Below the pieces are notes generated by a model. That model was not told the origin of the DNA. It did not search any database and was given only the letters and a program-made list of their open reading frames with translations. A DNA stretch of 64,000 nucleotides from a virus (taxonomy: Duplodnaviria > Caudoviricetes): IMG/VR virus record IMGVR_UViG_3300021400_000034, positions 128,001 through 192,000 of that record. One strand, 5' to 3'. Shown here piece after piece: positions 3,497 to 12,831 of the stretch. The first letter of the stretch is position 1. Each line of letters starts with the position of its first letter. The position numbers and the translations under genes were made by a program.

Positions 3497-3570
3497 GGAC
3501 CGGTAGCCCAACTGGCAGAGGCAGGGCACTCAAAACGCCCGCAGTGATGGTTCGAATCCATCTCGGTCCA
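3497..3570 (+). tRNA. tRNA-Leu(CAA), short variable arm
   Basis: Cloverleaf, loop CT-CAA-AA, GGTTCGAATCC. Confidence 0.8.
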
Positions 3571-3575
3571 CTTAT

Positions 3576-3649
3576 GGGGCTGCATGTACCAAGGCTGGCG
3601 ATGGATCTTAGCAAGATTCGTGAGAAGGGTTCGATTCCCTTCGGTTCCA
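3576..3649 (+). tRNA. tRNA-Ala(AGC)
   Basis: Loop TT-AGC-AA, G3:U70, atypical D arm. Confidence 0.7.
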
Positions 3650-3655
3650 CTACAT

Positions 3656-3729
3656 TAGGTCGTAGTTCTAATTGGCAGAACGCCTGGCCGTTAACCAGGA
3701 TGTTGCAGGTTCGAGTCCTGCCCTCCCAG
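3656..3729 (+). pseudogene. Degenerate tRNA-Asn(GTT)
   Basis: Good D/AC/T arms, C33, acceptor stem with 3 mismatches. Confidence 0.55.
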
Positions 3730-3736
3730 CTAATTT

Positions 3737-3810
3737 CAGCGTATAGCTCAGTCTGGTAGAGCGTTGGTTTCGGGTACCAAAGGTCGGTGGTTCGAATCCA
3801 CCTACGCTGA
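3737..3810 (+). tRNA. tRNA-Pro(CGG)
   Basis: Cloverleaf, TTGGT-TTCGGGT-ACCAA. Confidence 0.9.
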
Positions 3811-3846
3811 CTCTTTAGAAAAACTTTGAAAATGACAAAATTTGAC

Positions 3847-3875
3847 TTTACAAAACAGCTAAAAATTCCTATAAT
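3847..3875 (+). promoter_or_regulatory. Early (sigma70-type) promoter family TTTA(C/G)(A/G)-N17-TATA(T/A)T
   Basis: Same motif with -35 at 5241, 12934, 14855, 17371, 19860, 21784, 25355, 49043, 51698, 55057 (+) and 36732-36759 (16-nt spacer), 39642-39670, 41223-41251, 42093-42121, 43796-43824 (-). Confidence 0.75.
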
Positions 3876-3911
3876 ATATATGTAAAACTCTTAAAGAAAA
3901 GGACCTGAACT

Positions 3912-4253
3912 ATGAAATTCAGAATCGTCTACATCGGCAACACCCGCCACATCAAGGAACTCAAGGCTGCAGCCCAGGAATTCAACCCCACCGCCCGCTC
4001 TCAGTGGCTCGGGATCTGCTTCCCGGACGACGCGATCGAAGCTGAAGTCGAAAGCGTAGAAGAGGGCAAGAAGCTCATGGCCCACATCTACAAGAAGGTC
4101 AACTGCTTCCCGAAGAAGTACTCTTACGTGGACGGACCGGAATGGTGGTCCAACGACATGAAGCACTTCCTCGGCACTTCTGTCTGCTCCGACCGCTTCG
4201 ACTACGAGAAGCCAGTCACCGAAGAACACTTTGAAGACTTCTTGGAGGCATAA
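3912..4253 (+). CDS. Hypothetical early protein
   Basis: ORF after early promoter with AAGGACC RBS. Confidence 0.75.
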   Translation: MKFRIVYIGNTRHIKELKAAAQEFNPTARSQWLGICFPDDAIEAEVESVEEGKKLMAHIYKKVNCFPKKYSYVDGPEWWSNDMKHFLGTSVCSDRFDYEKPVTEEHFEDFLEA

Positions 4254-4537
4254 TGATCTGGAAGCGCTCTACATACAGTCACAGCGGAACGCTCGCTGTG
4301 TTCGCAAACGATGACGATGGCAGTCCTTACGGCGTCGCTACCGTATATCTGGAAGGGCAGAGCGAAACGCTCCCCAGAGACTGCGCATTCGTCGATACGA
4401 ACAACTGGCCAGACATCGTCGAGACGCTGGAGAAAGCCGATCTCGCTGAAGAGCTGATCGACTCCTATGGCTCTTCGGGATTCTGCGTCTATCCAGCGAT
4501 GCGCTTCAAGATCGAGAAGATCTCGGAAGCACGATAA
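4253..4537 (+). CDS. Hypothetical protein (DUF4313-like)
   Basis: PYG.ATV.L...AFVDTNN...SGFCVYP pattern. Confidence 0.55.
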   Translation: MIWKRSTYSHSGTLAVFANDDDGSPYGVATVYLEGQSETLPRDCAFVDTNNWPDIVETLEKADLAEELIDSYGSSGFCVYPAMRFKIEKISEAR

Positions 4538-4557
4538 ATTAAGTAGATTTGTTCTAC

Positions 4558-4631
4558 GCCCCGATAGCTCAGCTGGATAGAGCAACTGCCTTCTAAGCAG
4601 TAGGTCGCAGGTTCGAATCCTGCTCGGGGTA
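4558..4631 (+). tRNA. tRNA-Arg(TCT)
   Basis: Canonical cloverleaf. Confidence 0.92.
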
Positions 4632-4755
4632 CTACCGAGTCTAGCTCTCGACCTATATCCTCACACAAATATGGGTTTCCCTTAAACTAACATACTGCTA
4701 GACTCTGTCATGGTCTTCTCCGTTCCCATGAATAAAGAACCGAGACGCCTTTCAT

Positions 4756-4829
4756 GGATCTGTATGACAACTGGAATAGTCGAGGCGACTTTTAATCGTC
4801 GGATCTGGGTTCGAGTCCCGGCAGGTCCA
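4756..4829 (+). tRNA. tRNA-Lys(TTT)
   Basis: GGCGA-CTTTTAA-TCGTC, T arm. Confidence 0.85.
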
Positions 4830-4842
4830 CTAACATAGAACA

Positions 4843-5034
4843 ATGGAGATGAAGATGAAGAAAGACAAGAAAGAGCCTGAGACTTGGGAAGAGAAGAAGA
4901 ACCGCTGGGAGAAGCAGACGAAGAAGGCACTGTCTTTCGCTAAACAGAGCGGAATCGACGTCAAGAAGTTACAACGCGAACGAGCTAAGAACGAAGCTGA
5001 GAAGAGAGATCGATCTCGTTCGCAGTTCTTCTAA
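4843..5034 (+). CDS. Small basic hypothetical protein
   Basis: ORF between tRNAs with phage codon usage. Confidence 0.55.
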   Translation: MEMKMKKDKKEPETWEEKKNRWEKQTKKALSFAKQSGIDVKKLQRERAKNEAEKRDRSRSQFF

Positions 5035-5039
5035 GACAA

Positions 5040-5124
5040 GGCCACATGGCGGAACTGGTAGACGCTATGGACTTAAAATCCATTGAAGGTAATCTTCGTG
5101 AGAGTTCGAGTCTCTCTGCGGCTA
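5040..5124 (+). tRNA. tRNA-Leu(TAA)
   Basis: Type II cloverleaf. Confidence 0.88.
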
Positions 5125-5127
5125 TAC

Positions 5128-5219
5128 TGGGCAGTCGCCAAGTCTGGTTCAAGGCCCCGGACTTTGACTCCGGTAGAGAGGAAGTTCCTCCGTCAGTGGT
5201 TCGAATCCACTCTGCCCAA
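5128..5219 (+). tRNA. tRNA-Gln(TTG) with long variable arm
   Basis: CCGGA-CTTTGAC-TCCGG; extra GAGGA-agt-TCCTC hairpin. Confidence 0.8.
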
Positions 5220-5340
5220 TAAAAAATTCTAGAAATAGGGTTTAGAAACTGAACTTCAATTTCTATATTCTAATCATCGTCAATCGATGAGGCTCTTCCG
5301 AGAGAAGAACCAGCAAATTGAAATTTCGGCAATGACTTAT

Positions 5341-5414
5341 TCCACTCTAGCTCAATTGGTAGTAGCGGGCGGCTGTTAACCGCCAGGTTCCTGGTTCGAG
5401 TCCAGGGAGTGGAG
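5341..5414 (+). tRNA. tRNA-Asn(GTT)
   Basis: Canonical cloverleaf. Confidence 0.92.
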
Positions 5415-5415
5415 C

Positions 5416-5822
5416 TACACACGCGGTAATTGTTTTACAGTTTCTGCTTGGCGTGAGCATTCCTCCGTCCGGGGTGCCTTTTGAGCCCTCGGGTCGCGGT
5501 AAAAGAATGAAACTGGAGAGACTAAGTTGAAAAGGCTGCGATGTACCGCACAGGTGAAGTAAGTGCAACAACACTGGTTTCGAATTAAATGGCGAGGAGC
5601 CATCGAGAGAAGTCGAACTGTGGTAAGAGCAGAGGCTCTACGCTCTGGAGGTTGCATACTCCGGACGTGGACTACAAAGTGCATCCGATCGTCGCGGATA
5701 TTCTTCTTTCGATACGGGCAAATCGCAAGTCAGGAACAGTCATGCAAGACTCAGTACTGGCGAGCTCTTTAACGAGAGAGAACACTGCACTGAGGTCACC
5801 GCAGTCTAATCAAACCTCACCT
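5416..5822 (+). ncRNA. Large structured ncRNA candidate (possibly GOLLD/ROOL-like)
   Basis: ~400 nt between two tRNAs, no credible ORF, multiple helices (CAGTTTC/GAAACTG, TGAGGT/ACCTCA). Confidence 0.4.
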
Positions 5823-5823
5823 C

Positions 5824-5896
5824 GGGGCCGTGGCGCAATTGGTAGCGCATCAGATTTGCATTCTGAGGGTTGCGGGTCCGACTCCCGCCGGTTCCA
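5824..5896 (+). tRNA. tRNA-Ala(TGC)
   Basis: Cloverleaf, G3:U70, T loop TCCGACT. Confidence 0.85.
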
Positions 5897-5899
5897 CTA

Positions 5900-5960
5900 T
5901 AGATCCTAACAGCAATTCAAAGCACATTCCTGTTAAGAATCGAAAGCTAAAATGGATCTA
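5900..5960 (+). ncRNA. ACAGCAA-stem element E1 carrying an Asn(GTT) anticodon stem-loop
   Basis: TAGATCC/GGATCTA stem, TAACAGCAA, ATTC-CTGTTAA-GAAT. Confidence 0.7.
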
Positions 5961-5967
5961 GTCATTT

Positions 5968-6040
5968 CAGTCTGTACGTCAATTGGTAGACGGATGGTTT
6001 TGGGAACCATTAGTTGAGTGTTCGAGTCACTCCAGACTGA
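5968..6040 (+). tRNA. tRNA-Pro(TGG)
   Basis: Cloverleaf. Confidence 0.88.
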
Positions 6041-6161
6041 CTACTAAAAGAGGGACAAGAGGCTTCCACCTCCTGATCGAATTTCGTCGTTCGATCTCAC
6101 CTCTATACAATATGAGGATATGGAAGAATCCTCGTAAAAATAAAGATAACAGAGGCGAATT

Positions 6162-6944
6162 ATGATTTGCGAAAATTGCGGAAAAGAACATGACGGTTCT
6201 TACGGAAGTGGAAGATTCTGCTCTAGAGATTGCAGATTTTCTTATATAGGTAAACAGACTAACAAGAATGGTAAACATACTGGTCATCCTAATTATAATA
6301 CTGGAAGGACTCATTTTACTGCTTCACCAGATGGATGGAAATGCAAATGGTGTGATTTAGTCTTTAGAACTAGACGTGAACGTTCAAAACATTCAAATGA
6401 AGTTCATATACGCGATAAAAAGCATCCTTGGAATTATGGACTAACCAAAGATACTTCTAAAAAGGTAAAAGAGAGTACAGAATTAGTTAGGGAACTATAC
6501 AAAGCTGGAAAAATTCGTAAACCTGACAAAAAATTAGTATGGACGGAAGAGAGAAGACAAAGACAATCTGATAAGAAAAAGAAGTTTTATTCTGAACATC
6601 CAGAAGCACATCCAAATCGAAAATTAGCTAATAATCGTTCTAAGATGAGTTATCCAGAAAAGATAGTTTACGATTGGCTTACTGAGAAAAACATATCTTT
6701 TGAACATAATAAGCTGATAAGAACTAAAACTATTACGAGATATGTAGATTTTTATCTAAAAGACAATAATCTTATAATAGAAGTTGATGGAGAATTTTGG
6801 CACAATAGAAAGATTGAAAAAGATAAAAAGAAAGATTTTGAAGCCGAAGAAGCCGGTTATACTACTCTCCGAATAAAAGCAAAAGAGAGGATAATAGACC
6901 GATTAAATGACTTCTTCAGCTATCATATAAAAACGCTGGAATAG
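6162..6944 (+). CDS. Homing endonuclease (Zn fingers + DUF559/Vsr-like PD-(D/E)xK domain)
   Basis: CENC, CSRDC, CKWC; SYPE...VDFY...IIEVDGEFWH; AT-rich; stop lies inside the next tRNA. Confidence 0.75.
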   Translation: MICENCGKEHDGSYGSGRFCSRDCRFSYIGKQTNKNGKHTGHPNYNTGRTHFTASPDGWKCKWCDLVFRTRRERSKHSNEVHIRDKKHPWNYGLTKDTSKKVKESTELVRELYKAGKIRKPDKKLVWTEERRQRQSDKKKKFYSEHPEAHPNRKLANNRSKMSYPEKIVYDWLTEKNISFEHNKLIRTKTITRYVDFYLKDNNLIIEVDGEFWHNRKIEKDKKKDFEAEEAGYTTLRIKAKERIIDRLNDFFSYHIKTLE

Positions 6945-7007
6945 CTCAGCTGGTAGAGCAGGGCTTTCGTAAAGCTCAGGTCGGCAGTTCGAGCCTGTCT
7001 TCCAGCG
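6935..7007 (+). tRNA. tRNA-Thr(CGT)
   Basis: Cloverleaf. Confidence 0.88.
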
Positions 7008-7019
7008 CTACTGAAATTA

Positions 7020-7142
7020 GAGATGGTAACAGCAATTCTCTTTAGGCTGGTAACCTCGTGGTCGCGGGTTCGAGTCCCGTCTGGTCAGTCTCCGGATTGA
7101 TCGGTAGCTCAGTTGGTAGAGCACGTACAAGAAATCCATCTC
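7020..7142 (+). ncRNA. Element E2: circularly permuted tRNA(GGT)
   Basis: GAGATGG/CCATCTC stem, AACAGCAA; 3' piece 7044-7088 precedes 5' piece 7098-7125. Confidence 0.8.
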
Positions 7143-7148
7143 GTCTTT

Positions 7149-7222
7149 GGTGCCGTGGTGAAGTGGCCTAACACATCGGTCTGTCTAACCGACATACGCG
7201 AGTTCGAATCTCGCCGGCATCG
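7149..7222 (+). tRNA. tRNA-Asp(GTC)
   Basis: Cloverleaf. Confidence 0.88.
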
Positions 7223-7225
7223 CTA

Positions 7226-7555
7226 TGATCTGAAGGAGAGACTCTAGCAATAGTGGAGTCGCTATCCTTGCAAAGGCCGCTACATTGAGCGTTACTTCGC
7301 CGTCAATTGGATCCAATGGAAGGACGCTTACTGGTTGATCAGCAGAAGTCAATTCGACGTCAACATGATGTCACCGACGAAGGCTGTGATGGAGTCAGGG
7401 GAGAGCATAGGCATAAGCATCCTGGCCCGGCCGCTGGAATCTCGAATTCATTTCAACCATCGAACGAGTCCGATGGTTCTATCGCGAAAAATAACGGCAT
7501 AAGCGCGAGACAGGTAAAGTCTTCGGTCACAAGACTATAAATGACCGGCCGTACA
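7226..7555 (+). ncRNA. Unknown ~300-nt structured RNA
   Basis: 5' TGATCTGAAGG pairs with TCTTCGGTCA (7520-7529); internal hairpins; between tRNAs. Confidence 0.4.
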
Positions 7556-7556
7556 A

Positions 7557-7640
7557 GTCAGCTTCGGATAGCGGCAATTCCAGGAGACTGTAAATCTCCT
7601 GCCTTAACGGGCTTCGTAGGTTCGAGTCCTACAGCTGGCA
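7557..7640 (+). tRNA. tRNA-Tyr(GTA)
   Basis: Type II cloverleaf. Confidence 0.9.
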
Positions 7641-7647
7641 CTAATCC

Positions 7648-7823
7648 ATAGCGTCTGAATTCAAGTACGTATCTTCGTAGCTCAGTTGGTAGAGCGCAGG
7701 CCGAGAGGGCCTGAGGCGGTGGTTCGAGTCCATTCGTCGACCGTGAAGAGGGGGAGGCTTGGAGAGGATATCGGTTGAACTGTGAACTCGAGATAGCTTT
7801 TCACTCTTATCCTCAGCGCTATT
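7648..7823 (+). ncRNA. tRNA-like domain nested in a larger closed RNA
   Basis: Outer ATAGCG/CGCTAT stem; canonical D and T arms; AC loop lacks U33; poor acceptor stem. Confidence 0.55.
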
Positions 7824-7825
7824 AT

Positions 7826-7898
7826 GCTGGAATAGCTCAATTGGCAGAGCGTCGCCTTTGTAACGCGAGGGTTGGGAGTTCGATTCTCTCTTCCAGCG
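7826..7898 (+). tRNA. tRNA-Thr(TGT)
   Basis: Cloverleaf. Confidence 0.85.
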
Positions 7899-7959
7899 CT
7901 ATAATGAAAAGAATTGTAAAAGTTTTCTAAATCTTGGCTTTATCGATATAAATAGACAG

Positions 7960-8589
7960 ATGGTTCACTACACTGTCTATAAGATAACAAATCTTCTAAA
8001 CGGGATGATCTACATCGGTAAGCACAAGACGGAGAATCTGGACGATTCTTACATGGGATCTTCTGAGTGGTTGAAGTCTTCTATCAAGAAGCACGGAATA
8101 GAGAACTACAAGAAAGAGATTCTATTCGACTTCGAGACAAAAGAAGAGATGGACTTGAAGGAGAAAGAGCTAGTCAACGAAGAGTTCGTCAGACGCAAAG
8201 ATACATACAATCTGAACACTGGCGGAACTGGAGGCTGGTTCGCATGTAACAGCTCTGGTCTGAATCATTCGGCTGGTCAACATCTTCTCTCAGGCGAGAG
8301 ATGTCGGAAGGATCCAGAATACCGGAAGAAGTTCTGCGAGAAAGTGAGCGAGGGACTAAAGAAATATTACGAAGATCCAGAACATCGTCTCTATGGCGTC
8401 AAGAACCCTAGATACGGAATTCAGCTCACTCCGGAAGAGAAAGCGAGACTCAGCGCATCTCATTCTGGAAAGAAGAACGGTTCTTACGGTTCGCACTGGA
8501 TAACGAACCCGAAGCTGAAGAAGAACATGAGACTGAAAGGACTTGTGAAACTTCCAAGAGGTTGGAAGTTCGGAAGAAAGAAGTATTAA
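7960..8589 (+). CDS. GIY-YIG homing endonuclease (Seg-like)
   Basis: VYKITN..NGMIYIGKH...YMGS...YNL; late promoter at 7947. Confidence 0.9.
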   Translation: MVHYTVYKITNLLNGMIYIGKHKTENLDDSYMGSSEWLKSSIKKHGIENYKKEILFDFETKEEMDLKEKELVNEEFVRRKDTYNLNTGGTGGWFACNSSGLNHSAGQHLLSGERCRKDPEYRKKFCEKVSEGLKKYYEDPEHRLYGVKNPRYGIQLTPEEKARLSASHSGKKNGSYGSHWITNPKLKKNMRLKGLVKLPRGWKFGRKKY

Positions 8590-8592
8590 CGA

Positions 8593-8664
8593 CGCGGAGT
8601 GGAGGAGTGGTTTCCTTGAAGGGTTCATACCCCTTAGACCCCGGTTCGAGTCCGGGCTCCGCTA
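8593..8664 (+). tRNA. Initiator tRNA-fMet(CAT)
   Basis: C1 mismatch, three G-C pairs in the anticodon stem. Confidence 0.8.
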
Positions 8665-8669
8665 CTAAT

Positions 8670-8935
8670 TTTAGTCAAGTCAATGTCGGGCCGTTTGACT
8701 CGCGCTTCGATGTAACGACATACTTGGCAAGGCGTCAGTGAAGTGATGGCCATCGCGGATCTTTCGCCGGATCTTTTAAAGCGTAGCGCATGTACCGATA
8801 GAGATCTCCTGAGGTTGCGAACTCTCTTGATCTTGACAAGCAGGTAGCTTCGGTCCCGTCGTTGAGACGGTGCAAAAAGTCTCAGTCGTCGCAACGGCTG
8901 TGATCGCGGTTCGAATCCGTCGTGCGTGACACAAT
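8670..8935 (+). ncRNA. Unknown ~260-nt structured RNA ending in a T-arm-like hairpin
   Basis: Hairpins, TGAGAC/GTCTCA alternative pairing, GCGGTTCGAATCCGT near the 3' end. Confidence 0.35.
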
Positions 8936-8938
8936 TTA

Positions 8939-9037
8939 GAGATACCGACAGCAATTCATTGTTAGTGGTTCGAATCCATAAGCTGAATAGCTGCGGTCTG
9001 GCGCAAGTCAGATGGGCAATACAAACAGCGGTATCTC
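8939..9037 (+). ncRNA. Element E3: T-arm-first degenerate permuted tRNA-like payload
   Basis: GAGATACCG/CGGTATCTC stem, ACAGCAA, GTGGTTCGAATCCAT followed by two hairpins. Confidence 0.7.
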
Positions 9038-9042
9038 GTCAT

Positions 9043-9114
9043 GGTCCCTTCGGCCAGTGGTTAAGCCATCGCACTTTCTATGCGAGGACCCCAGTTCGAC
9101 TCTGGGAGGGACTA
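9043..9114 (+). tRNA. tRNA-Glu(TTC)
   Basis: Cloverleaf. Confidence 0.88.
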
Positions 9115-9229
9115 CTAAGAGTGACTCGGTGGGTGTTCGCGGCTGATAGTCCTAACACACCTCCGGCAACACTTCGAACTAGATGACTAGCTACTGCGAC
9201 GAGTTCGAAGGAGAACACTCTTCGTTTTT

Positions 9230-9299
9230 GAGATAGGTACAGCAATGATCACCAACTCTGCTCCATCATGCGGTTCGTGGCGTTAGGCCACTCTATCTC
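9230..9299 (+). ncRNA. Element E4 (payload unclear)
   Basis: GAGATAG/CTATCTC stem, GTACAGCAA. Confidence 0.65.
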
Positions 9300-9366
9300 G
9301 TAAACTTGGGTGCGCGGTCGGAGGAAGCCCTCCGGAGTTTCTCAATTCTCGAAAAATTGATCATAT

Positions 9367-9439
9367 CCCGGTATAGTTCAGTTGGTAGAACAGCTCCTTC
9401 ATACGGAGACGGTCGCAGGTTCAAGTCCTGCTATCGGAA
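9367..9439 (+). tRNA. tRNA-Met/Ile2(CAT)
   Basis: Cloverleaf, loop TTCATAC. Confidence 0.78.
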
Positions 9440-9445
9440 CTATAT

Positions 9446-9518
9446 GCCTCGCTGGCGCAATTGGTAGCGCAAGGCACTCTTAATGCTTGGGTTGAAGGTT
9501 CGAGTCCTTCGCGGGGTA
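9446..9518 (+). tRNA. tRNA-Lys(CTT)
   Basis: Cloverleaf. Confidence 0.9.
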
Positions 9519-9646
9519 CTAAAATCTATCTCATGCTTATTAAGCTACGGCATGAGCTCTAGCTATGTTTCGTCCGAGAGCCATCAGGTATAAAAAGCGG
9601 TCAGGGCACGGTTCTTGCTCTAAAGCGGTCGCTAGCATGAACTTTT

Positions 9647-9719
9647 CTCCGGTTAACTCAGCGGTTAGAGTGCCATCCTTACAAGTTGGAAGTCCGGGGT
9701 TCGAATCCCTGATCGGAGA
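9647..9719 (+). tRNA. tRNA-Val(TAC)
   Basis: Cloverleaf. Confidence 0.88.
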
Positions 9720-9725
9720 CTACTA

Positions 9726-9793
9726 AAGATCCTAACTGCAAATTTCTTATAACATCCGATTGGTAATCAGACTACGTTAGAAAAATGGATCTT
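9726..9793 (+). ncRNA. Element E5 carrying a Thr(GGT) anticodon stem-loop
   Basis: AAGATCC/GGATCTT stem, TAACTGCAA, TCCGA-TTGGTAA-TCAGA. Confidence 0.68.
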
Positions 9794-9804
9794 GAAATTT
9801 TTAT

Positions 9805-9878
9805 CGGCATCTAGCGCAATTGGTTAGAGCACTGCTCTGATAAGGCAGAGGTTTTTGGTTCAAGTCCAAGGTTGCCGA
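9805..9878 (+). tRNA. tRNA-Ile(GAT)
   Basis: Cloverleaf. Confidence 0.85.
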
Positions 9879-9882
9879 CTAA

Positions 9883-9938
9883 GAGGTTCTTACAGCAATT
9901 CTACAATCTTCTTTTTGGTTAAGAAAAAAAGGAATCTC
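9883..9938 (+). ncRNA. Element E6 carrying a Pro(TGG)-like anticodon stem-loop
   Basis: GAGGTTCT/GGAATCTC stem, TACAGCAA, TTCTT-TTTGGTT-AAGAA. Confidence 0.62.
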
Positions 9939-9944
9939 GATTAT

Positions 9945-10018
9945 CCACCTATAGCTCAGAACGGTAGAGCGGAAGACTGAAGATCTTCGCGTCGGAGTCT
10001 CGAACCCTCCTAGGTGGA
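9945..10018 (+). tRNA. tRNA-Phe(GAA)
   Basis: Cloverleaf with atypical T loop. Confidence 0.8.
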
Positions 10019-10027
10019 CTACAATAT

Positions 10028-10109
10028 CCCCTCGTGGCGGAACTGGTAGACGCGCCTGACTTAGGATCAGGAGCCGAGAGGCGTGCAGGTTCGAGTCCTG
10101 CCGAGGGGA
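10028..10109 (+). tRNA. tRNA-Leu(TAG)
   Basis: Type II cloverleaf. Confidence 0.92.
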
Positions 10110-10113
10110 CTAT

Positions 10114-10223
10114 AAGATAACAGACAGCAATCATCTACCCCAAAGCGGCTATGTTGGTGAAAGTCCAGCCGTCGATGTATGTCGGCGTCATCTAATCTAG
10201 GATTCCGCTCAAAATGTCATCTT
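10114..10223 (+). ncRNA. Element E7: permuted tRNA opened in the anticodon loop (Gly CCC-like)
   Basis: AAGATAACA/TGTCATCTT stem, GACAGCAA; AGCGG-T arm-acceptor hairpin-D arm-CCGCT. Confidence 0.7.
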
Positions 10224-10229
10224 GACTAT

Positions 10230-10303
10230 ACTCCGTTGGTGTAATGGACTTAGCATACGGGCCTACGAAGCCCTTGATCCAAGTTCGAATCTTGGACGGA
10301 GTA
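10230..10303 (+). tRNA. tRNA-Arg(ACG)
   Basis: Cloverleaf. Confidence 0.88.
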
Positions 10304-10315
10304 CTATTCCATGAT

Positions 10316-10436
10316 TAGATCCAAACTGCAACTCTCAAATCGTTACCATCAATCAACGGCCAAGCATCTCGGGATGCGCCTAGCTACATGGACTGGGAGA
10401 GGAGGGTTCGAATCCCCGGAAAATGAATCGGATCTA
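10316..10436 (+). ncRNA. Element E8 with a T-arm-containing payload
   Basis: TAGATCC/GGATCTA stem, AACTGCAA, GGGTTCGAATCCC. Confidence 0.65.
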
Positions 10437-10623
10437 GCTAAGCTCTCGATGCTGCTGACATTACGTCTAAATCGGAAAAACGCTATTCCATGTCTCGTGA
10501 AAGATATAAGCGAGAAGCAAGATAGTTAGCTCTGCATCGTCGATGCTAAGAGAGACGATGTCGTCATATATCCTCTGAACGGTCTTCGAGACAAGCGCTA
10601 AATCAACGCACAGGATAAATTAA

Positions 10624-10696
10624 GCTGACGTGCCGAAGTGGGAACGGAGGAGTCTGCAAAACTTTCTATGAGTGGGTTCGATTCCTACCGTCAGCT
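10624..10696 (+). tRNA. tRNA-Cys(GCA)
   Basis: Cloverleaf, U73. Confidence 0.88.
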
Positions 10697-10701
10697 CTAT
10701 A

Positions 10702-10811
10702 CAAGATGTCAACCGCAATTCCTTTCCAGGGTAGCTCTAGAGGTAGAGCACCGTCCTTGAGGCGGAAGAAGCTGGTTCGATCCCAGCCCCGGGAGCACAG
10801 ACGGCATCTTG
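10702..10811 (+). ncRNA. Element E9: whole tRNA-like payload with a 5-nt anticodon loop
   Basis: CAAGATGTC/GGCATCTTG stem, AACCGCAA, CCGTC-CTTGA-GGCGG. Confidence 0.7.
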
Positions 10812-10822
10812 ACAATTTAAAT

Positions 10823-10906
10823 CGGGCTATTACCTTGGGCCGGACTCATAACCCGGGCCGTTAAAATCCAGGGCGGTGCGGAGAGGTTCGACTCCTCGTG
10901 GCCCGA
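10823..10906 (+). tRNA. D-armless tRNA(CAT)-like RNA with long variable arm
   Basis: CGGGCTA/TGGCCCG acceptor, CTCATAA loop, T arm, no D stem. Confidence 0.55.
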
Positions 10907-10909
10907 TAA

Positions 10910-10994
10910 GGAGGACTACACTAATTGGTAAGTGACCACGGTGCTAACGTGGCGCCTCGAAAGAGGCTTCCAGGTTCGAGCCCTGGGTCCTCCG
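10910..10994 (+). tRNA. tRNA-Ser(GCT)
   Basis: Type II cloverleaf. Confidence 0.88.
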
Positions 10995-11076
10995 CTAAAG
11001 ATCTTAGGAGTCGTTGCCCTAAGCAACGTGGAGCGCACGCGCCGGTACCGTCCAGAGCCGTCAAATCTGGACTTTT

Positions 11077-11167
11077 GGAAGTGTGCCAGAGTCTGGCTTA
11101 TCGGACCGGTCTTGAAAACCGAGGGCGGTACCCATTCCGCACGGGGGTTCGAATCCCTCCACTTCCT
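11077..11167 (+). tRNA. tRNA-Ser(TGA)
   Basis: Type II cloverleaf. Confidence 0.88.
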
Positions 11168-11172
11168 CTATC

Positions 11173-11243
11173 GCGTCCTTGATGTAGTGGTAGCACTTCT
11201 CATTGCCTGTGAGAAAGCGCCAGTTCGAATCTGGCAGGACGCT
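11173..11243 (+). tRNA. tRNA-Gly(GCC)
   Basis: Cloverleaf. Confidence 0.85.
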
Positions 11244-11266
11244 TACTTTTCTATATTTAAAATACA

Positions 11267-11348
11267 GAGATAGACACAGCAATCCTTTTGGATAACGTAA
11301 TGATCTGCAAAATCAAAGCTAGACGGTCCAAATCCGTCAATCTATCTC
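11267..11348 (+). ncRNA. Element E10: Cys(GCA) anticodon arm + T-like arm
   Basis: GAGATAGA/TCTATCTC stem, CACAGCAA, TGAT-CTGCAAA-ATCA, GACGG-TCCAAAT-CCGTC. Confidence 0.7.
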
Positions 11349-11356
11349 GTTCATAA

Positions 11357-11427
11357 GCACCACTGGTCTAAAAGTATGATCAAACTCTTCCAAAGTTTGG
11401 GAACCGGGGCAGTACCGGTGTGGTGCT
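11357..11427 (+). tRNA. tRNA-Gly(TCC)
   Basis: Cloverleaf with atypical T loop GGCAGTA. Confidence 0.75.
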
Positions 11428-11430
11428 CTA

Positions 11431-11545
11431 GAGATTCCAACAGCAAACTCTGGTTTTTTCCGCCGTTGGGAAAATAGCTCAATTGGTAGAGCGCTCGTCA
11501 CTATGACGAGAGGTTACGGGTTCGAGTCCCGCTAAAGTGAATCTC
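11431..11545 (+). ncRNA. Element E11: tRNA permuted between T arm and acceptor
   Basis: GAGATTC/GAATCTC stem, AACAGCAA; acceptor hairpin, then D, AC and T arms. Confidence 0.72.
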
Positions 11546-11552
11546 GTCTTTT

Positions 11553-11626
11553 GGCTCTGTCGAATAACTGGTTCAGTTCGTTAGCCTCTCAAGCTAGAAA
11601 TTCGGGTTCAAGTCCCGACAGAGCTA
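11553..11626 (+). tRNA. tRNA-Glu(CTC)
   Basis: Cloverleaf. Confidence 0.88.
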
Positions 11627-11632
11627 TACATC

Positions 11633-11706
11633 CCCGCAGTAGTGTGAATTGGTTAGCACGCCTGCTTGTGGCGCAGGAAGTTCGGGTTCGAATCTCGGCT
11701 ATGGGA
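11633..11706 (+). tRNA. tRNA-His(GTG)
   Basis: Cloverleaf; no encoded G-1, A73. Confidence 0.8.
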
Positions 11707-11844
11707 CTAAGTCACTGATGAAGATGATGTAAGTAAGCCCGTCCAAGGTAGATCCTTTTGGGGCTAGTGCAGTAGCATAAGTTGCGGTATAGAGGCTGAG
11801 AATGCGTACAGGATAGCTCAGTAATGCGTCATCAGAGACTTTCA

Positions 11845-12225
11845 ATGATAGGCACAGCAACTCTAACACGTTCAATACATCAAATGCTGACGTGCAGAGC
11901 TACGGGAAATTGCCTTGATCGACGAGGACAGGGCCATGGTCGAGCAGCGCAGCTGAATCTCGATCACCTTGACGGACGGTCAGAACGTTCGTCTAACTTC
12001 CGGGCAGACTGCTCGGTAAGATCTTGCCCGTCTCTGATAGTTCCAAGACGAAGAACTTGGTGCTTGCTCTAATAAGTAAGGAGATAGTGCTGGTGACACC
12101 AGATAGCGTCAATGAGAAACCGTTGACTGATCTTTTGTAAGCTGCTATTCGAATCAAGAGAGAAGCGACACGAAGCAGCGGAGACTGAAAAGACAGCAAA
12201 CTCTAATCGGTCTCGTCCCTATCAT
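11845..12225 (+). ncRNA. Element E12: ~380-nt element with hairpin-dense payload
   Basis: ATGATAGG/CCTATCAT stem, CACAGCAACTCTAA. Confidence 0.55.
12181..12214 (+). ncRNA. Element E13: minimal empty element nested in E12
   Basis: GAGACTGA/TCGGTCTC stem, GACAGCAAACTCTAA. Confidence 0.55.
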
Positions 12226-12231
12226 GTTTTC

Positions 12232-12302
12232 TGCCCGTTGGTATAACGGTATTACACCTGACTCTGACTCAGGTGACGGTGGTCCGACTCCATCACGGGC
12301 AA
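12232..12302 (+). tRNA. tRNA-Gln(CTG)
   Basis: Cloverleaf. Confidence 0.85.
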
Positions 12303-12420
12303 TATGGAATGATAAGGTTCAGCCTCTGTTCTAGAGATCGGTGAATTCGCGACACTTCATCGAGATCGAGAACTACCACCAGCACGATCTGTCTTCGAAG
12401 CGGATCAAAAGAGGCATTCT

Positions 12421-12492
12421 AGGGAATTCGTATATCGGTTATTACGGCGGTCTCCAAAACCGTTCAGCTCTGTTCGACTCGGAGATTCCCTG
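12421..12492 (+). tRNA. tRNA-Trp(CCA)
   Basis: Cloverleaf. Confidence 0.85.
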
Positions 12493-12495
12493 CTA

Positions 12496-12624
12496 GAGAT
12501 TCTAACAGCAGAACGGTCTGTAAAACCGTTGGCTTTCGCCTTCGCAGGTTCGAATCCTGTCCACCTCCATACGAGGAGGTGTGCCCGAGCTGGTCAAAGG
12601 GGACGGTCCGCTAAAATGAATCTC
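12496..12624 (+). ncRNA. Element E14: circularly permuted tRNA-Tyr(GTA)
   Basis: GAGATTC/GAATCTC stem, AACAGCA; AC-V-T arms, CACCTCCA, linker, GGAGGTG, D arm; ACGGTC duplicated. Confidence 0.8.
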
Positions 12625-12629
12625 GTTCT

Positions 12630-12714
12630 CCTCCGGTACCCGAATTGGTATAGGGGCCTGCTTGAGGGGCAGGTGGGCGATATGCCCGTGAGAGTTCAAG
12701 TCTCTCTTGGAGGA
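12630..12714 (+). tRNA. tRNA-Leu(GAG)
   Basis: Type II cloverleaf. Confidence 0.88.
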
Positions 12715-12831
12715 CTAAAGTTTGTTCTTGCAAGGCGGACTCCGTCAATTAAGTCAATCATGTCGAGATGGACATGGGACGACGGAGGACGTGACCCCCT
12801 GCTCGGTGTCAGGCTAAAACGCCGCTATTTG

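What the first reader, a model, noticed from the sequence alone, without database searches (positions are those of the whole stretch)
5900..12624. A 14-member family of carrier RNAs (closing stem + ACAGCAA) displaying diverse tRNA-derived payloads
Seen: elements at 5900, 7020, 8939, 9230, 9726, 9883, 10114, 10316, 10702, 11267, 11431, 11845, 12181 and 12496 share a 7-9-bp terminal helix, usually RAGAT-NN.../...NN-ATCTY. The inner pairs covary between copies (CC/GG, GG/CC, AC/GT, AG/CT, TC/GA). An unpaired AC(A/T/C)GCA(A) follows the 5' strand at near-fixed spacing. Payloads differ completely: permuted tRNAs, bare anticodon stem-loops, AC+T arm, whole tRNA with a damaged loop, a large RNA, or nothing. 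Most sit between two tRNAs, so tRNA processing would release them. Established: bacterial Y RNAs (YrlA) join a Ro60-binding terminal stem to a tRNA-like domain with a closed acceptor end; hosts use anticodon nucleases (PrrC, RloC, AriB, PtuAB) against phage. Inference: a protein-bound handle plus variable bait, i.e. a diversified phage library of Y-like tRNA-mimic/decoy RNAs, or substrates of an unknown ligation pathway. No Ro60/TROVE or RtcB gene is visible in this window.
Basis: partly seen in the sequence, partly recalled or inferred. Interest (0 to 1): 0.95.

Follow-up and report, generated by a model that had tools for sequence, protein, structure and literature searches.

The report
Phage Y-like RNAs displaying tRNA mimics
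A 243-kb rumen phage has about 13 small RNAs scattered through its tRNA gene cluster; they share one short docking "handle" but carry different tRNA-like pieces, and the same handle sits in front of a Ro60-shaped ring-protein gene in this and many other phages, which points to an undescribed relative of the Ro60/Y-RNA particles.

Summary
Twelve of the 14 elements have a 7-9 bp closing helix in fixed register (N-A/U-G-N6) before an unpaired AC(A/U/C)GCA(A/G). E07 is imperfect. E13 is doubtful, because the nearest relative lacks it. A covariance model built mostly from other phages returns all 14 stated intervals, though five only at chance-level E-values (0.4-5.5).

A 15th copy of the handle sits about 30 nt upstream of a DUF2828/DUF7788 gene. 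The model of that protein (pLDDT 94.6) matches Ro60 over its full length (Z 22.9). The gene lies beside a kinase, a phosphoesterase and an Rnl1 RNA ligase.

In 84 diverse phage loci encoding this protein, exact ACAGCAA occurs within 260 nt upstream in 56 on the sense strand and 0 on the antisense strand. Felix O1, Listeria P100-like phages, mycobacteriophages and others also carry the elements.

Payloads include permuted tRNAs (Tyr, Thr), bare anticodon stem-loops (Asn, Cys) and tRNA bodies without a usable anticodon loop.

Best reading: Y-RNA-like partner RNAs of a Ro60-like protein that display tRNA mimics, probably for counter-defence or tRNA repair. The function is untested.

This scan had already noted the same handle/protein pair in at least 19 other genomes. 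I found no paper that describes it.

The parts
5900..5960 (+). E01. Handle UAGAUCC/GGAUCUA plus ACAGCAA. Payload is a bare anticodon stem-loop mimic with loop CUGUUAA (GUU, Asn).
   Evidence: R1 39.1 bits, E 1.4e-7. Fold; ASL scan. Starts 2 nt after tRNA-Ala and ends 7 nt before tRNA-Pro.
7020..7142 (+). E02. Handle GAGAUGG/CCAUCUC. Payload is a circularly permuted tRNA-like body: anticodon loop CUGGUAA (GGU, Thr), T arm, acceptor stem closed by a loop, D arm.
   Evidence: Rfam YrlA model positions 24-84, 38.2 bits (gathering score 69). R1 21.5 bits. ARAGORN finds a tRNA across the junction of the rotated payload.
8939..9037 (+). E03. 9-bp handle. Payload is a T arm, a short closed hairpin and a 7-bp hairpin with a GNRA loop.
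   Evidence: R1 22.6 bits. Fold. The G001 orthologue keeps the hairpin and a GNRA loop (GCAA versus GAAA).
9230..9299 (+). E04. Handle GAGAUAG/CUAUCUC. Payload is two small hairpins with no clear tRNA part.
   Evidence: R1 23.7 bits. Orthologue present in G001.
9726..9793 (+). E05. Handle AAGAUCC/GGAUCUU with core ACUGCAA. Payload is a weak hairpin with loop UUGGUAA.
   Evidence: R1 33.4 bits. Nearly identical in G001. Lies between tRNA-Val and tRNA-Ile.
9883..9938 (+). E06. 9-bp handle with two G-U pairs. Payload is a short A/U-rich hairpin.
   Evidence: Best R1 hit, 41.6 bits. The G-U pairs argue for RNA-level pairing, not DNA-level.
10114..10223 (+). E07. Atypical handle AAGAUAAC/GUCAUCUU with one A-C mismatch and the core one nucleotide further away. 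Payload is three hairpins.
   Evidence: R1 10.3 bits, E 1.6. Fails the fixed-register test. No counterpart seen in G001.
10316..10436 (+). E08. Handle UAGAUCC/GGAUCUA with core ACUGCAA. Payload has a long second helix and a T-arm-like hairpin (UUCGAAU loop).
   Evidence: R1 15.4 bits, E 0.088. Fold.
10703..10810 (+). E09. Handle AAGAUGUC/GGCAUCUU (one G-U) with core ACCGCAA. Payload is a whole cloverleaf called tRNA-Leu(GAG), but without the long arm of a Leu tRNA and with a 5-nt anticodon loop in the fold.
   Evidence: ARAGORN. Rfam tRNA 41.4 bits. Fold. The anticodon region differs completely in the G001 orthologue. R1 weak, 8.1 bits, because of the long insert.
11267..11348 (+). E10. Handle GAGAUAGA/UCUAUCUC. 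Payload is an anticodon stem-loop mimic with loop CUGCAAA (GCA, Cys) plus a T-arm-like hairpin.
   Evidence: R1 24.3 bits. ASL scan; fold.
11431..11545 (+). E11. Handle GAGAUUC/GAAUCUC. Payload is a tRNA body with D and T arms, whose anticodon arm is a 7-bp stem with a 3-nt loop and whose acceptor is replaced by a hairpin.
   Evidence: Rfam tRNA 33.3 bits, model positions 7-64 only. R1 18.3 bits. In G001 the long stem has a different, compensated sequence and a GAAA loop.
11845..12225 (+). E12. Handle AUGAUAGG/CCUAUCAU plus ACAGCAA, enclosing a roughly 350-nt structured RNA of unknown family.
   Evidence: MFE -129.9 kcal/mol, z -4.0, closing helix present in the MFE. Conserved in G001 with apparent compensatory changes in helices, judged by eye and not counted. 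No Rfam match at E<=5.
12181..12214 (+). E13. Doubtful member: a mini-hairpin with ACAGCAA nested near the 3' end of E12.
   Evidence: R1 8.8 bits, E 3.7. Different spacing. The motif is absent at the same place in G001, although the flanks are conserved.
12496..12624 (+). E14. Handle GAGAUUC/GAAUCUC with core ACAGCAG. Payload is a complete circularly permuted class II tRNA-Tyr(GUA) whose acceptor is closed by a loop.
   Evidence: ARAGORN calls tRNA-Tyr(GUA) across the junction of the rotated payload. In the G001 orthologue the acceptor stem is fully compensated. R1 12.6 bits. A normal tRNA-Tyr(GUA) also exists at 7557-7641.

Best explanation
These elements are small non-coding RNAs of a Y-RNA-like kind.

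Production (inferred). Each is transcribed as part of the phage's tRNA operon and is probably cut out by the same enzymes that trim the neighbouring tRNAs: RNase P at the next tRNA's 5' end, and tRNA 3' processing upstream.

The constant part. This is the 'handle': a 7-9 bp helix formed by the RNA's two ends, with conserved outer A-G/C-U pairs. It is followed on the 5' strand by two nucleotides and an unpaired ACAGCAA, opposite an A-rich AAAU stretch. I take the handle to be the docking site for the phage's own Ro60-shaped ring protein (DUF2828 + vWA, encoded at genome 62822-64318). That gene carries a copy of the handle at the start of its own mRNA.

The variable part. It shows tRNA shapes: whole permuted tRNAs, anticodon stem-loops, T arms, and tRNA bodies without a usable anticodon.

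Committed mechanism. The ring protein holds the handle while the payload engages proteins that recognise tRNAs. The most likely targets are host tRNA-targeting defence nucleases, which would be titrated or trapped. Alternatively, the particle works with the kinase, phosphoesterase and Rnl1 ligase encoded next to the protein gene to deal with broken tRNAs.

What is shown and what is inferred. Shown: the RNA family, its structure-preserving evolution, its genomic link to the Ro60-fold gene, and the tRNA-like nature of several payloads. Inferred: binding, processing, and the counter-defence role.

The confidence of 0.62 refers to 'partner RNAs of the Ro60-like protein'. Within that, I put a decoy or bait role at about 0.35, a repair or quality-control scaffold at about 0.25, and other roles at the rest.
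For: 1. The family is real and selected as RNA. Fixed-register pairing holds at 12 of 15 sites against a 12% background. The pairs covary and include G-U pairs. The elements are strand-specific: 8 forward, 0 reverse. CM R1 recovers them.

2. Link to the protein in this genome. A 15th copy (GAGAUGG..ACAGCAA..CCAUCUC, the same helix as E02) lies 31 nt before the start codon of a 498-aa ORF. A TTTACA-17-TATATT promoter-like site lies 18 nt upstream of it. The ORF matches Pfam DUF7788 (140 bits) and DUF2828 (95.8 bits).

3. The protein has the Ro60 fold. AF2 pLDDT is 94.6. The 13 best Foldseek hits are all Ro60/TROVE. VIA Z is 22.9 over 410 residues against 2i91_A, compared with about 11-12 for vWA-only hits. 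The MIDAS residues D290/S292/S294 are invariant.

4. The link holds across phages. All 5 close or medium relatives keep a handle in the leader, including two at 57% protein identity with minimal payloads. Exact ACAGCAA occurs within 260 nt upstream in 56 of 84 loci on the sense strand, 0 of 84 on the antisense strand, and 0-4 of 84 in gene-internal windows.

5. Cultured phages of four bacterial phyla carry elements beside the gene: Felix O1 (4), Listeria LMTA-94 (3), Mycobacterium Acquire49 (3), Bacillus PK-3 (at least 6), Campylobacter CPX and Sinorhizobium phiM12.

6. tRNA mimicry. E02 matches the YrlA tRNA-like module. E14 is a permuted tRNA-Tyr. Hairpins shaped like anticodon stem-loops occur in 63 of 176 payloads, against 10.8 in shuffles; Lys-UUU and Asn-GUU are the commonest.

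7. They are not decoders. E09 and E11 lack a 7-nt anticodon loop. The E11 stem is compensated in G001 and carries a GAAA loop there. E14 duplicates an ordinary tRNA-Tyr.

8. RNA-repair context. A Metallophos phosphoesterase, an AAA_33 kinase and an Rnl1 ligase lie directly upstream of the protein gene. In Listeria LMTA-94 an RtcB gene lies 1.3 kb downstream.

9. Literature.
- Bas63 gp130 is Ro60-like by structure, sits just upstream of the tRNA genes and counters the Ppl defence. The authors guess that some 'tRNA genes' are Y RNAs (PMC11482910).
- Listeria phage CKA15_055 is Rsr-like by HHpred and is found in virions. Very abundant non-coding transcripts lie within 2 kb upstream, and the authors guess they are Y RNAs (PMC12282133).
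Against: - No experiment shows binding, processing or accumulation for any member.
- In this genome the array lies 65 kb from the protein gene, so the link rests on the shared motif.
- Bas63 gp130 alone, expressed in T7 infections (T7 has no such RNAs), was enough to restore plaquing on the Ppl strain (PMC11482910). The protein can therefore act without phage-encoded partner RNAs, at least against that system. I also could not confirm directly that gp130 is the Felix O1 gp42 homologue.
- The handle does not resemble the Ro60-binding stem of YrlA or of metazoan Y RNAs, and Pfam TROVE does not detect the protein.
- The Rnl1 neighbourhood is kept only in close relatives.
- About a third of the DUF2828 loci show no upstream element within 260 nt.
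- Aeromonas phiAS5 shows none near its gene.
- The most abundant CKA15 transcripts seem to map to a stretch that has no ACAGCAA in the related LMTA-94. That expression evidence therefore cannot be claimed for this family.
Confidence: 0.62

Rival explanations
1. Same ribonucleoprotein, different job. The Ro60-like ring and its handle RNAs form an RNA quality-control or repair platform, like the bacterial Rsr/Y-RNA/PNPase machine or the rsr-yrlA-rtcBA operon. The tRNA-like payload would tether the ring to a nuclease or to the neighbouring kinase, phosphoesterase and Rnl1 enzymes, so that broken or misfolded tRNAs are repaired or degraded. Host nucleases would not be decoyed.
For: The kinase, Metallophos phosphoesterase and Rnl1 lie directly upstream of the gene. 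RtcB lies near the gene in Listeria LMTA-94. Established knowledge of Rsr/Y RNA/PNPase (Chen et al. 2013, as cited in PMC4201824) and the view of TROVE proteins as repair platforms in jumbo phages (PMC7824862) fit this reading.
Against: The repair-gene adjacency is not conserved beyond close relatives. A scaffold would not obviously need a dozen different payloads, many of them bare anticodon stem-loops.
Confidence: 0.2
2. The elements are unusual tRNA genes: permuted or intron-bearing precursors. The handle would be a processing signal, analogous to the archaeal bulge-helix-bulge motif. Cleavage and ligation, for example by the phage Rnl1, would convert them into working tRNAs.
For: E02 and E14 contain every part of a tRNA in permuted order. 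In other phages the same module sits as a 40-60 nt insert in the anticodon arm of otherwise complete tRNAs. The genome encodes Rnl1 and Rnl2-type ligases. No ordinary tRNA-Thr(GGU) is present in the array.
Against: Most members cannot yield a tRNA. E01, E05, E06 and E10 are fragments, E12 is a 350-nt RNA, and E09 and E11 lack a 7-nt anticodon loop that is also not restored in the relative. E14 duplicates a normal tRNA-Tyr. The module also stands alone, with trivial payloads, in the leaders of the protein gene. No RtcB is present. I did not search for a splicing endonuclease gene.
Confidence: 0.08
3. The handles are punctuation for the long tRNA transcript. They would be sites for a host or phage ribonuclease, or stabilising end-helices, with no dedicated protein partner. 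The copy before the DUF2828 gene would be an unrelated regulatory hairpin.
For: The elements abut tRNAs with short spacers of constant length (5-7 nt). Terminal helices protect RNA ends.
Against: A sequence-invariant unpaired heptamer kept across phages of four bacterial phyla, tied to one protein family (56 of 84 sense, 0 of 84 antisense), is not expected of a generic RNase site. Most tRNA junctions in the array have no such element.
Confidence: 0.07
4. A DNA-level feature: inverted-repeat ends of small mobile cassettes, or recombination or homing sites that shuffle tRNA fragments.
For: The set of elements differs between close relatives: about 9 in G001 against 13-14 here. Two homing-endonuclease genes lie inside the array.
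Against: The elements are strictly on one strand. The helix sequence is free to vary as long as pairing is kept, and includes G-U pairs that would be mismatches in DNA. No target-site duplications were noticed.
Confidence: 0.03

Closest known systems
YrlA-type bacterial and phage Y RNAs with Ro60/Rsr (Rfam RF02553; Chen et al. 2014, PMC4201824)
   Same: Both are modular RNAs. The two ends form a protein-binding stem, and the rest mimics a tRNA with a closed acceptor end. Both are encoded near a Ro60-fold protein and often near RNA-repair genes. E02 and a mycobacteriophage element align to the YrlA tRNA-like module (38-40 bits).
   Different: All scores fall below the gathering threshold of 69 bits. 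The YrlA consensus has no ACAGCAA and its stem does not align to the handle. The protein is DUF2828/DUF7788, not Pfam TROVE. Payloads are highly diverse (stem-loops only, T arms, a 350-nt RNA), and there are up to about 13 copies per genome inside a tRNA array.
Bas63 (Felixounavirus) gp130, a Ro60-like counter-defence protein (PhageMaP preprint, PMC11482910)
   Same: A Ro60-shaped phage protein encoded directly upstream of the tRNA array. The authors speculate that some neighbouring 'tRNA genes' are Y RNAs. Felix O1 gp42 has exactly this layout, is a homologue of the protein here (31% identity over 98%), and is followed by four handle elements.
   Different: The preprint identifies no RNA motif or partner. 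The protein alone protected T7 from Ppl, a DNA-directed system. I inferred, and did not verify, that gp130 is the gp42 homologue.
Listeria phage CKA15_055 and neighbouring abundant non-coding RNAs (PMC12282133)
   Same: A P100-like phage with an Rsr-like protein downstream of its tRNA genes, for which the authors propose Y RNAs. The related LMTA-94 has a DUF2828 gene with three handle elements 75-340 nt upstream and RtcB 1.3 kb downstream.
   Different: The paper gives no motif. Its most abundant transcripts appear to come from a stretch further upstream that has no ACAGCAA in LMTA-94, so expression of the handle RNAs themselves is not established.
Circularly permuted and intron-bearing tRNA genes processed at bulge-helix-bulge motifs (red alga Cyanidioschyzon merolae and archaea; from my own knowledge)
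   Same: E02 and E14 have their 3' half before their 5' half. In other phages the same module is inserted in the anticodon arm, as a circular permutation of the form seen here.
   Different: No bulge-helix-bulge motif was evident, though I did not test this formally. Most members cannot give a tRNA, and some have no anticodon loop.
Phage T4 stable RNAs 'species 1 and 2' (rnaC, rnaD) in the tRNA cluster (from my own knowledge)
   Same: Small stable RNAs of unknown function, co-transcribed and co-processed with phage tRNAs in a T4-type phage.
   Different: No sequence comparison was made here. No handle motif or Ro60-like partner is known for them.

Membership tests
YrlA (Rfam RF02553) | Score at or above the curated gathering threshold (69 bits) | tested here: not met
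   The best score in the window is 38.2 bits, for E02 over model positions 24-84 only. There is no match at the gathering threshold anywhere in the window.
YrlA (Rfam RF02553) | tRNA-like module: T arm, acceptor-like stem closed by a loop, D arm | tested here: met
   E02 aligns to the YrlA module with all three helices. Rotated E14 is called tRNA-Tyr by ARAGORN. Most other members do not have the full module.
YrlA (Rfam RF02553) | Ro60-binding stem with the family's consensus sequence | tested here: not met
   The YrlA consensus printed contains no ACAGCAA. The alignment of the mycobacteriophage element starts only after the handle.
YrlA / Y RNAs in general | Encoded next to the gene of the Ro60-type partner protein | tested here: met
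   One copy lies 31 nt upstream of the Ro60-fold gene in this genome. In 84 other loci, ACAGCAA is upstream in 56 on the sense strand and 0 on the antisense strand. The 14 elements of the finding itself are 65 kb away.
Y RNAs in general | Physical binding to the Ro60-type protein | not testable with these tools
   Needs pull-down, CLIP or gel shift.
Ro60 / TROVE proteins | Match to Pfam TROVE (PF05731) | tested here: not met
   No match in the whole genome. A profile of the family against PDB sequences puts Ro60 first, but only at E 0.02 and over the vWA part alone.
Ro60 / TROVE proteins | Fold: ring of helical repeats followed by a vWA domain with a MIDAS motif | tested here: met
   Model pLDDT 94.6. 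Z 22.9, rmsd 3.8 A over 410 of 498 residues against Xenopus Ro60 (2i91_A). D290/S292/S294 are invariant in 104 homologues.
DUF2828 + DUF7788 (Pfam PF11443, PF25043) | Scores above the curated cut-offs | tested here: met
   95.8 bits (cut-off 29) and 140 bits (cut-off 27.1).
Functional tRNA genes (permuted or with introns) | A 7-nt anticodon loop and a complete cloverleaf after removal of the module | tested here: not met
   Met only by E02 and E14. E09 has a 5-nt loop, E11 a 3-nt loop (a GAAA tetraloop in the relative), and E01, E05, E06 and E10 are fragments.
Handle family as modelled here (CM R1, built from 47 elements of about 30 phages) | Full-length match to the model on the sense strand | tested here: met
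   All 14 intervals are returned as full-length hits. Nine score E<=0.1. Five (E07, E09, E12, E13, E14) score E 0.4-5.5, which by itself is inconclusive for them.

The most novel reading that the evidence does not exclude
The array is an evolvable bait library. Each payload copies the part of a particular tRNA that a given host tRNA-cleaving defence nuclease recognises: anticodon loops of Asn, Cys, Thr and Tyr here, and mostly Lys-UUU and Asn-GUU in other phages. The Ro60-like ring bound to the common handle would capture or neutralise whatever attacks the bait, or hand the broken bait or tRNA to the adjacent kinase, phosphoesterase and Rnl1 enzymes. That would make it a modular RNA-protein anti-defence system in which specificity is changed simply by swapping the RNA cargo.
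Probability: 0.3. Interest if true: 0.9.

Novelty: new variant of a known kind. Interest (0 to 1): 0.8.

Why it matters
Ro60 and its Y RNAs are conserved from bacteria to humans, yet their function in bacteria and phages is still poorly understood.

This finding gives a large protein family of unknown function a concrete, sequence-defined candidate RNA partner. The family, DUF2828, has more than 6,000 clusters at 50% identity. It occurs in 710 cultured phage records, including Felix O1, P100/A511-like phages and mycobacteriophages. Pfam also describes it in eukaryotes, a point I take from memory.

It also suggests what many odd 'tRNA genes' and unannotated gaps in phage tRNA clusters may be. 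Two recent papers guessed that Y RNAs might lie near these genes (PMC11482910, PMC12282133). The motif makes that guess directly testable in laboratory phages.

If the tRNA-mimic payloads are baits for tRNA-targeting defences, this would be a new, RNA-programmable class of phage counter-defence. This window holds the richest and most varied set I saw: about 13 elements, all in the open, Y-RNA-like topology.

Tried and rejected
- Single-sequence AlphaFold of the protein failed (pLDDT 42). It was redone with a 104-sequence alignment.
- Megablast of the array against cultured phages found only a tRNA fragment.
- Rfam, at gathering and at permissive thresholds, gave nothing on the window array, 14 related loci, Felix O1 or the mycobacteriophage locus except tRNA and sub-threshold YrlA.
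- The first generic 'core plus any 7-bp helix' scan of the genome was too permissive. I replaced it with fixed-register tests.
- The reverse-complement control for anticodon-loop-like hairpins is uninformative, because A/U-rich loops match both ways. Only the shuffle control is used. T loops also match the loop pattern, so the four 'CGA' calls are T loops.
- The pattern AG-N6-ACAGCAA across five cultured phage genomes gave chance-level counts, because other lineages use a register of N7. As a negative control it shows only that a T5-like phage without DUF2828 has no hit.
- A guessed accession for Bas63 turned out to be Bas27, so the identity of gp130 with the Felix O1 gp42 homologue remains inferred.
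- Rnl1 adjacency was sought in 85 loci and found only in the three close relatives.
- I could not map the CKA15 'abundant RNA' coordinates onto the handle elements.
- A literature search for DUF2828 returned only plant and tardigrade gene lists.

Full report
**Context.** The window is bases 128001-192000 of a complete 243,336-bp IMG/VR virus record with direct terminal repeats. It is a T4-like phage, with topoisomerase II, UvsX, a DnaB-like helicase and a portal protein. Earlier notes of this scan call it a rumen phage. ARAGORN finds 33 tRNA genes at 3497-12715, all on the + strand. Rfam adds one more at 9945-10018 and, at gathering thresholds, finds nothing but tRNA.

**The observation.**
Each has a terminal helix, usually (G/A/U)AGAU-NN.../...NN-AUCU(C/U/A). 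Two nucleotides later comes an unpaired AC(A/U/C)GCA(A/G).
- The register is fixed. The 5' strand is N-(A/U)-G-N6, directly followed by the heptamer.
- To avoid choosing pairs by eye, I took every AC[ACT]GCA[AG] on the + strand of the array (15 sites). I asked whether the 7-mer at -9..-3 has a complement (at most one G-U) 20-420 nt downstream. Twelve do. The rate is 12% for arbitrary 7-mers in the region, and 12 of 136 for core sites elsewhere in the genome.
- The three failures are a site nobody claimed (5798), E07 (register +1, one A-C mismatch) and E13.
- The stricter pattern RAGATNNNNACNGCAA occurs 8 times forward, never in reverse, and never for the reversed control in the whole genome.
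- The minimum-free-energy fold of each element folded closes with this helix and leaves the heptamer mostly unpaired.

**The missing protein.**
- One of the eight pattern hits lies outside the window, at genome 62739. It is a 53-nt element with the same helix as E02.
- It ends 31 nt before the ATG of a 498-codon ORF. A TTTACA-17-TATATT promoter-like site lies 18 nt upstream.
- The ORF is Pfam DUF2828 plus DUF7788.
- A single-sequence fold failed. With 104 homologues the model reaches pLDDT 94.6.
- Its 13 best Foldseek matches are all Ro60/TROVE proteins. VIA-align gives Z 22.9, rmsd 3.8 A over 410 residues against Xenopus Ro60, far above the vWA-only matches at Z 11-12.
- By sequence the relation is marginal. 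Pfam TROVE finds nothing, and a family profile reaches Ro60 only at E 0.02.
The genome does encode a Ro60-fold protein, with a copy of the handle on its leader.
- Directly upstream lie a calcineurin-type phosphoesterase, an AAA_33 kinase and a T4 Rnl1-type RNA ligase. An Rnl2-type ligase lies elsewhere, and there is no RtcB.

**Is the link more than one coincidence?**
- Five relatives found with the protein (57-77% identity) all carry a handle in the leader. The two most distant have unrelated helix sequences and almost no payload.
- A profile search returned 80 further, much more diverse viral loci (35-55% identity).
- Across the 84 usable loci, exact ACAGCAA lies within 260 nt upstream on the sense strand in 56. 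It occurs in none on the antisense strand, and in 0-4 loci in gene-internal windows. It is also enriched 260-520 nt upstream (37 of 83) and just downstream (20 of 82).
- Cultured phages show the same:
  - Felix O1 has the gene directly before its tRNA array, with four elements between the first tRNAs.
  - Listeria LMTA-94 has three elements 75-340 nt upstream and an RtcB gene 1.3 kb downstream.
  - Mycobacteriophage Acquire49 has three elements after its annotated 'Ro-like RNA binding protein'.
  - Bacillus PK-3, Campylobacter CPX and Sinorhizobium phiM12 also have them. Aeromonas phiAS5 does not, at least near the gene.
- The protein family is in 710 cultured phage records.

**Structure and covariation.**
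- An alignment of 47 short elements, 41 of them from other phages, puts the helix strands in register.
- All seven core pairs change on both sides. The first pair, for example, is A-U 20, U-A 15 and G-C 7.
- 84.6% of cells pair, against 63% in shuffles and 33-50% when partners are slid. No shuffle of 500 reaches the observed covariation. Because the rows were picked for complementarity, I give more weight.
- The consensus is nAGACnCUnACAGCAAUU...AAAAUGnGUCUn.
- The covariance model built from this alignment finds seven window elements and the leader copy with default filters, and nothing else in 64 kb at E<=1.
- With filters off it returns all 14 intervals. Five are weak because of long inserts or deviant cores.

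**Topology.**
- In many other phages Rfam reports 'tRNAs' of 114-139 nt. They contain a closed hairpin followed by ACAGCAA, inserted in the anticodon arm. By my reading of those sequences, the insert often lies between positions 28 and 29.
- That is the circular permutation of what is seen here. In this window the helix is open, formed by the RNA's own ends, and the tRNA acceptor end, where present, is closed by a loop. This is exactly the YrlA arrangement.

**Payloads.**
- E14 is a complete permuted class II tRNA-Tyr(GUA). ARAGORN calls it across the junction of the rotated payload.
- E02 is a permuted tRNA-like body with a GGU loop. It aligns to positions 24-84 of Rfam YrlA (38.2 bits, gathering score 69).
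- E01 and E10 carry anticodon stem-loops with loops CUGUUAA and CUGCAAA. E10 adds a T-arm-like hairpin.
- E09 is a whole cloverleaf with a shortened loop. E11 is a tRNA body whose anticodon arm is a 7-bp stem with a 3-nt loop.
- E12 encloses a roughly 350-nt RNA (z -4.0) with no Rfam match.
- Over 176 elements from all loci, hairpins with a 7-nt YU-NNN-R-N loop occur in 63, against 10.8 in shuffles. Lys-UUU (14) and Asn-GUU (7) lead.

**Comparison with the closest near-complete relative.** This is G001, 247,923 bp.
- Handles are conserved, while payload helices are compensated. The E11 long stem has a new sequence and a GAAA loop. The E14 acceptor stem is entirely different but still paired. 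The E03 hairpin keeps a GNRA loop.
- The relative has about nine elements. E07, E08 and E10 have no counterpart.
- E13 is replaced by unrelated sequence inside the otherwise 89%-identical E12. I therefore regard E13 as doubtful.

**Processing.**
- Eight elements end 5-7 nt before the next tRNA's first base, nine within 11 nt. Eight begin within 11 nt of the preceding tRNA's end.
- RNase P and tRNA 3' trimming would therefore release them with a short 3' tail. This is inference; no RNA data exist for this phage.

**Interpretation.**
- The best-supported reading is a Ro60/Y-RNA-like particle: the DUF2828 ring protein plus handle RNAs whose variable halves mimic tRNA parts.
- They are not decoding tRNAs (E09, E11, the fragments, and the duplication of tRNA-Tyr).
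- They are not DNA repeats (strand-specific, G-U pairs, free helix sequence).
- What the particle does is open. The anticodon-loop payloads and the repair genes beside the protein point to the conflict over tRNA cleavage, either as baits for host nucleases or as a scaffold for repair or decay.

**Published observations that bear on this.**
- Bas63 gp130 is Ro60-like by structure and sits just upstream of the tRNA genes. It counters the Ppl defence and works even when moved into T7, so the protein does not strictly need phage RNAs for that effect. The authors speculate that some tRNA genes are Y RNAs (PMC11482910).
- In Listeria phage CKA15 an Rsr-like protein is found in virions, and very abundant non-coding transcripts arise within 2 kb upstream. 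These are again speculatively called Y RNAs (PMC12282133). By my rough mapping, the most abundant ones come from a stretch without the motif.
- Neither paper defines the RNA. Chen et al. 2014 searched only genomes annotated with TROVE proteins (PMC4201824).
- My paper searches found no description of the handle.

**Relation to earlier notes of this scan.** After I had found the protein link independently, a look-up showed that the same hairpin-plus-ACAGCAA module with a DUF2828 gene had been noted in at least 19 other genomes. Those notes mostly describe the closed, in-tRNA topology. One of them pointed me to the Bas63 preprint. This window adds the open, Y-RNA-like topology, the largest and most varied set, a protein gene far from the array with its own leader copy, and the Rnl1/kinase/phosphoesterase neighbourhood.

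**Verdict.** In detail: 12 sound members, E07 imperfect, E13 doubtful, plus one copy outside the window. The Y-like handle-plus-payload architecture and a Ro60-fold partner gene are backed by independent evidence. Binding, processing, and a decoy or ligation role are untested. It is a new variant of a known kind of system, and apparently unpublished.

Noticed in passing
outside the window: G000:C1:58079-62250 (L009:79-4250): An RNA-repair-like gene set lies directly upstream of the Ro60-like gene. It comprises a calcineurin-type phosphoesterase, an AAA_33 (polynucleotide-kinase-like) P-loop kinase, a weak HAD/NT5C match and a T4 Rnl1-type RNA ligase. A 147-aa ORF of unknown family sits between the ligase and the handle.
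   Followed up: partly
window 11845-12225: The payload of E12 is a roughly 350-nt structured RNA (z -4.0). It is 89% identical in the relative G001, with what look by eye like compensatory helix changes, and has no Rfam match. Its identity is unknown.
   Followed up: partly
window 10811-10909: An unannotated stretch between E09 and tRNA-Ser looks like a degenerate tRNA. It has a 7-bp acceptor-like closing helix (AUCGGGC/GCCCGAU), a CUCAUAA (CAU) loop and a T arm, but no clear D arm. Neither ARAGORN nor Rfam calls it.
   Followed up: no
window 7224-7556, 8666-8938, 10437-10623, 11708-11844, 12303-12420: Several ORF-free gaps of 118-333 nt inside the tRNA array carry neither a tRNA nor the handle. 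They may hold other small RNAs.
   Followed up: no
window 5128-5219: tRNA-Gln(UUG) is 92 nt long and has a long extra arm, which is unusual for a glutamine tRNA.
   Followed up: no
window 3497-12715 (tRNA 3' flanks): The tRNA genes do not encode CCA. Many are followed by CUA or ACUA after the discriminator base. The spacer between an element and the next tRNA is nearly always 5-7 nt, beginning with G.
   Followed up: no
window 6162-6944 and 7960-8589: Two probable homing-endonuclease genes interrupt the tRNA array. One is Vsr/DUF559-type and the other is SegE-like GIY-YIG with a NUMOD3 motif. In the relative G001, the element corresponding to E01/E02 appears interrupted by an A/T-rich insert.
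   Followed up: partly
L099:1497-2568 (Listeria phage LMTA-94): An unannotated 1-kb gap lies about 1-2 kb upstream of the DUF2828 gene. By rough mapping, it corresponds to the region that yields up to two thirds of phage transcripts in the related phage CKA15 (PMC12282133). It contains no ACAGCAA, so it holds a different abundant RNA.
   Followed up: partly
L097:2990-3116 (Mycobacterium phage Acquire49): The middle element after the 'Ro-like RNA binding protein' gene uses AGCAGCAA in place of ACAGCAA. It carries a permuted tRNA-like body that matches Rfam YrlA over the full model at 39.8 bits (below the threshold of 69). It may be a bridge between this family and YrlA.
   Followed up: partly
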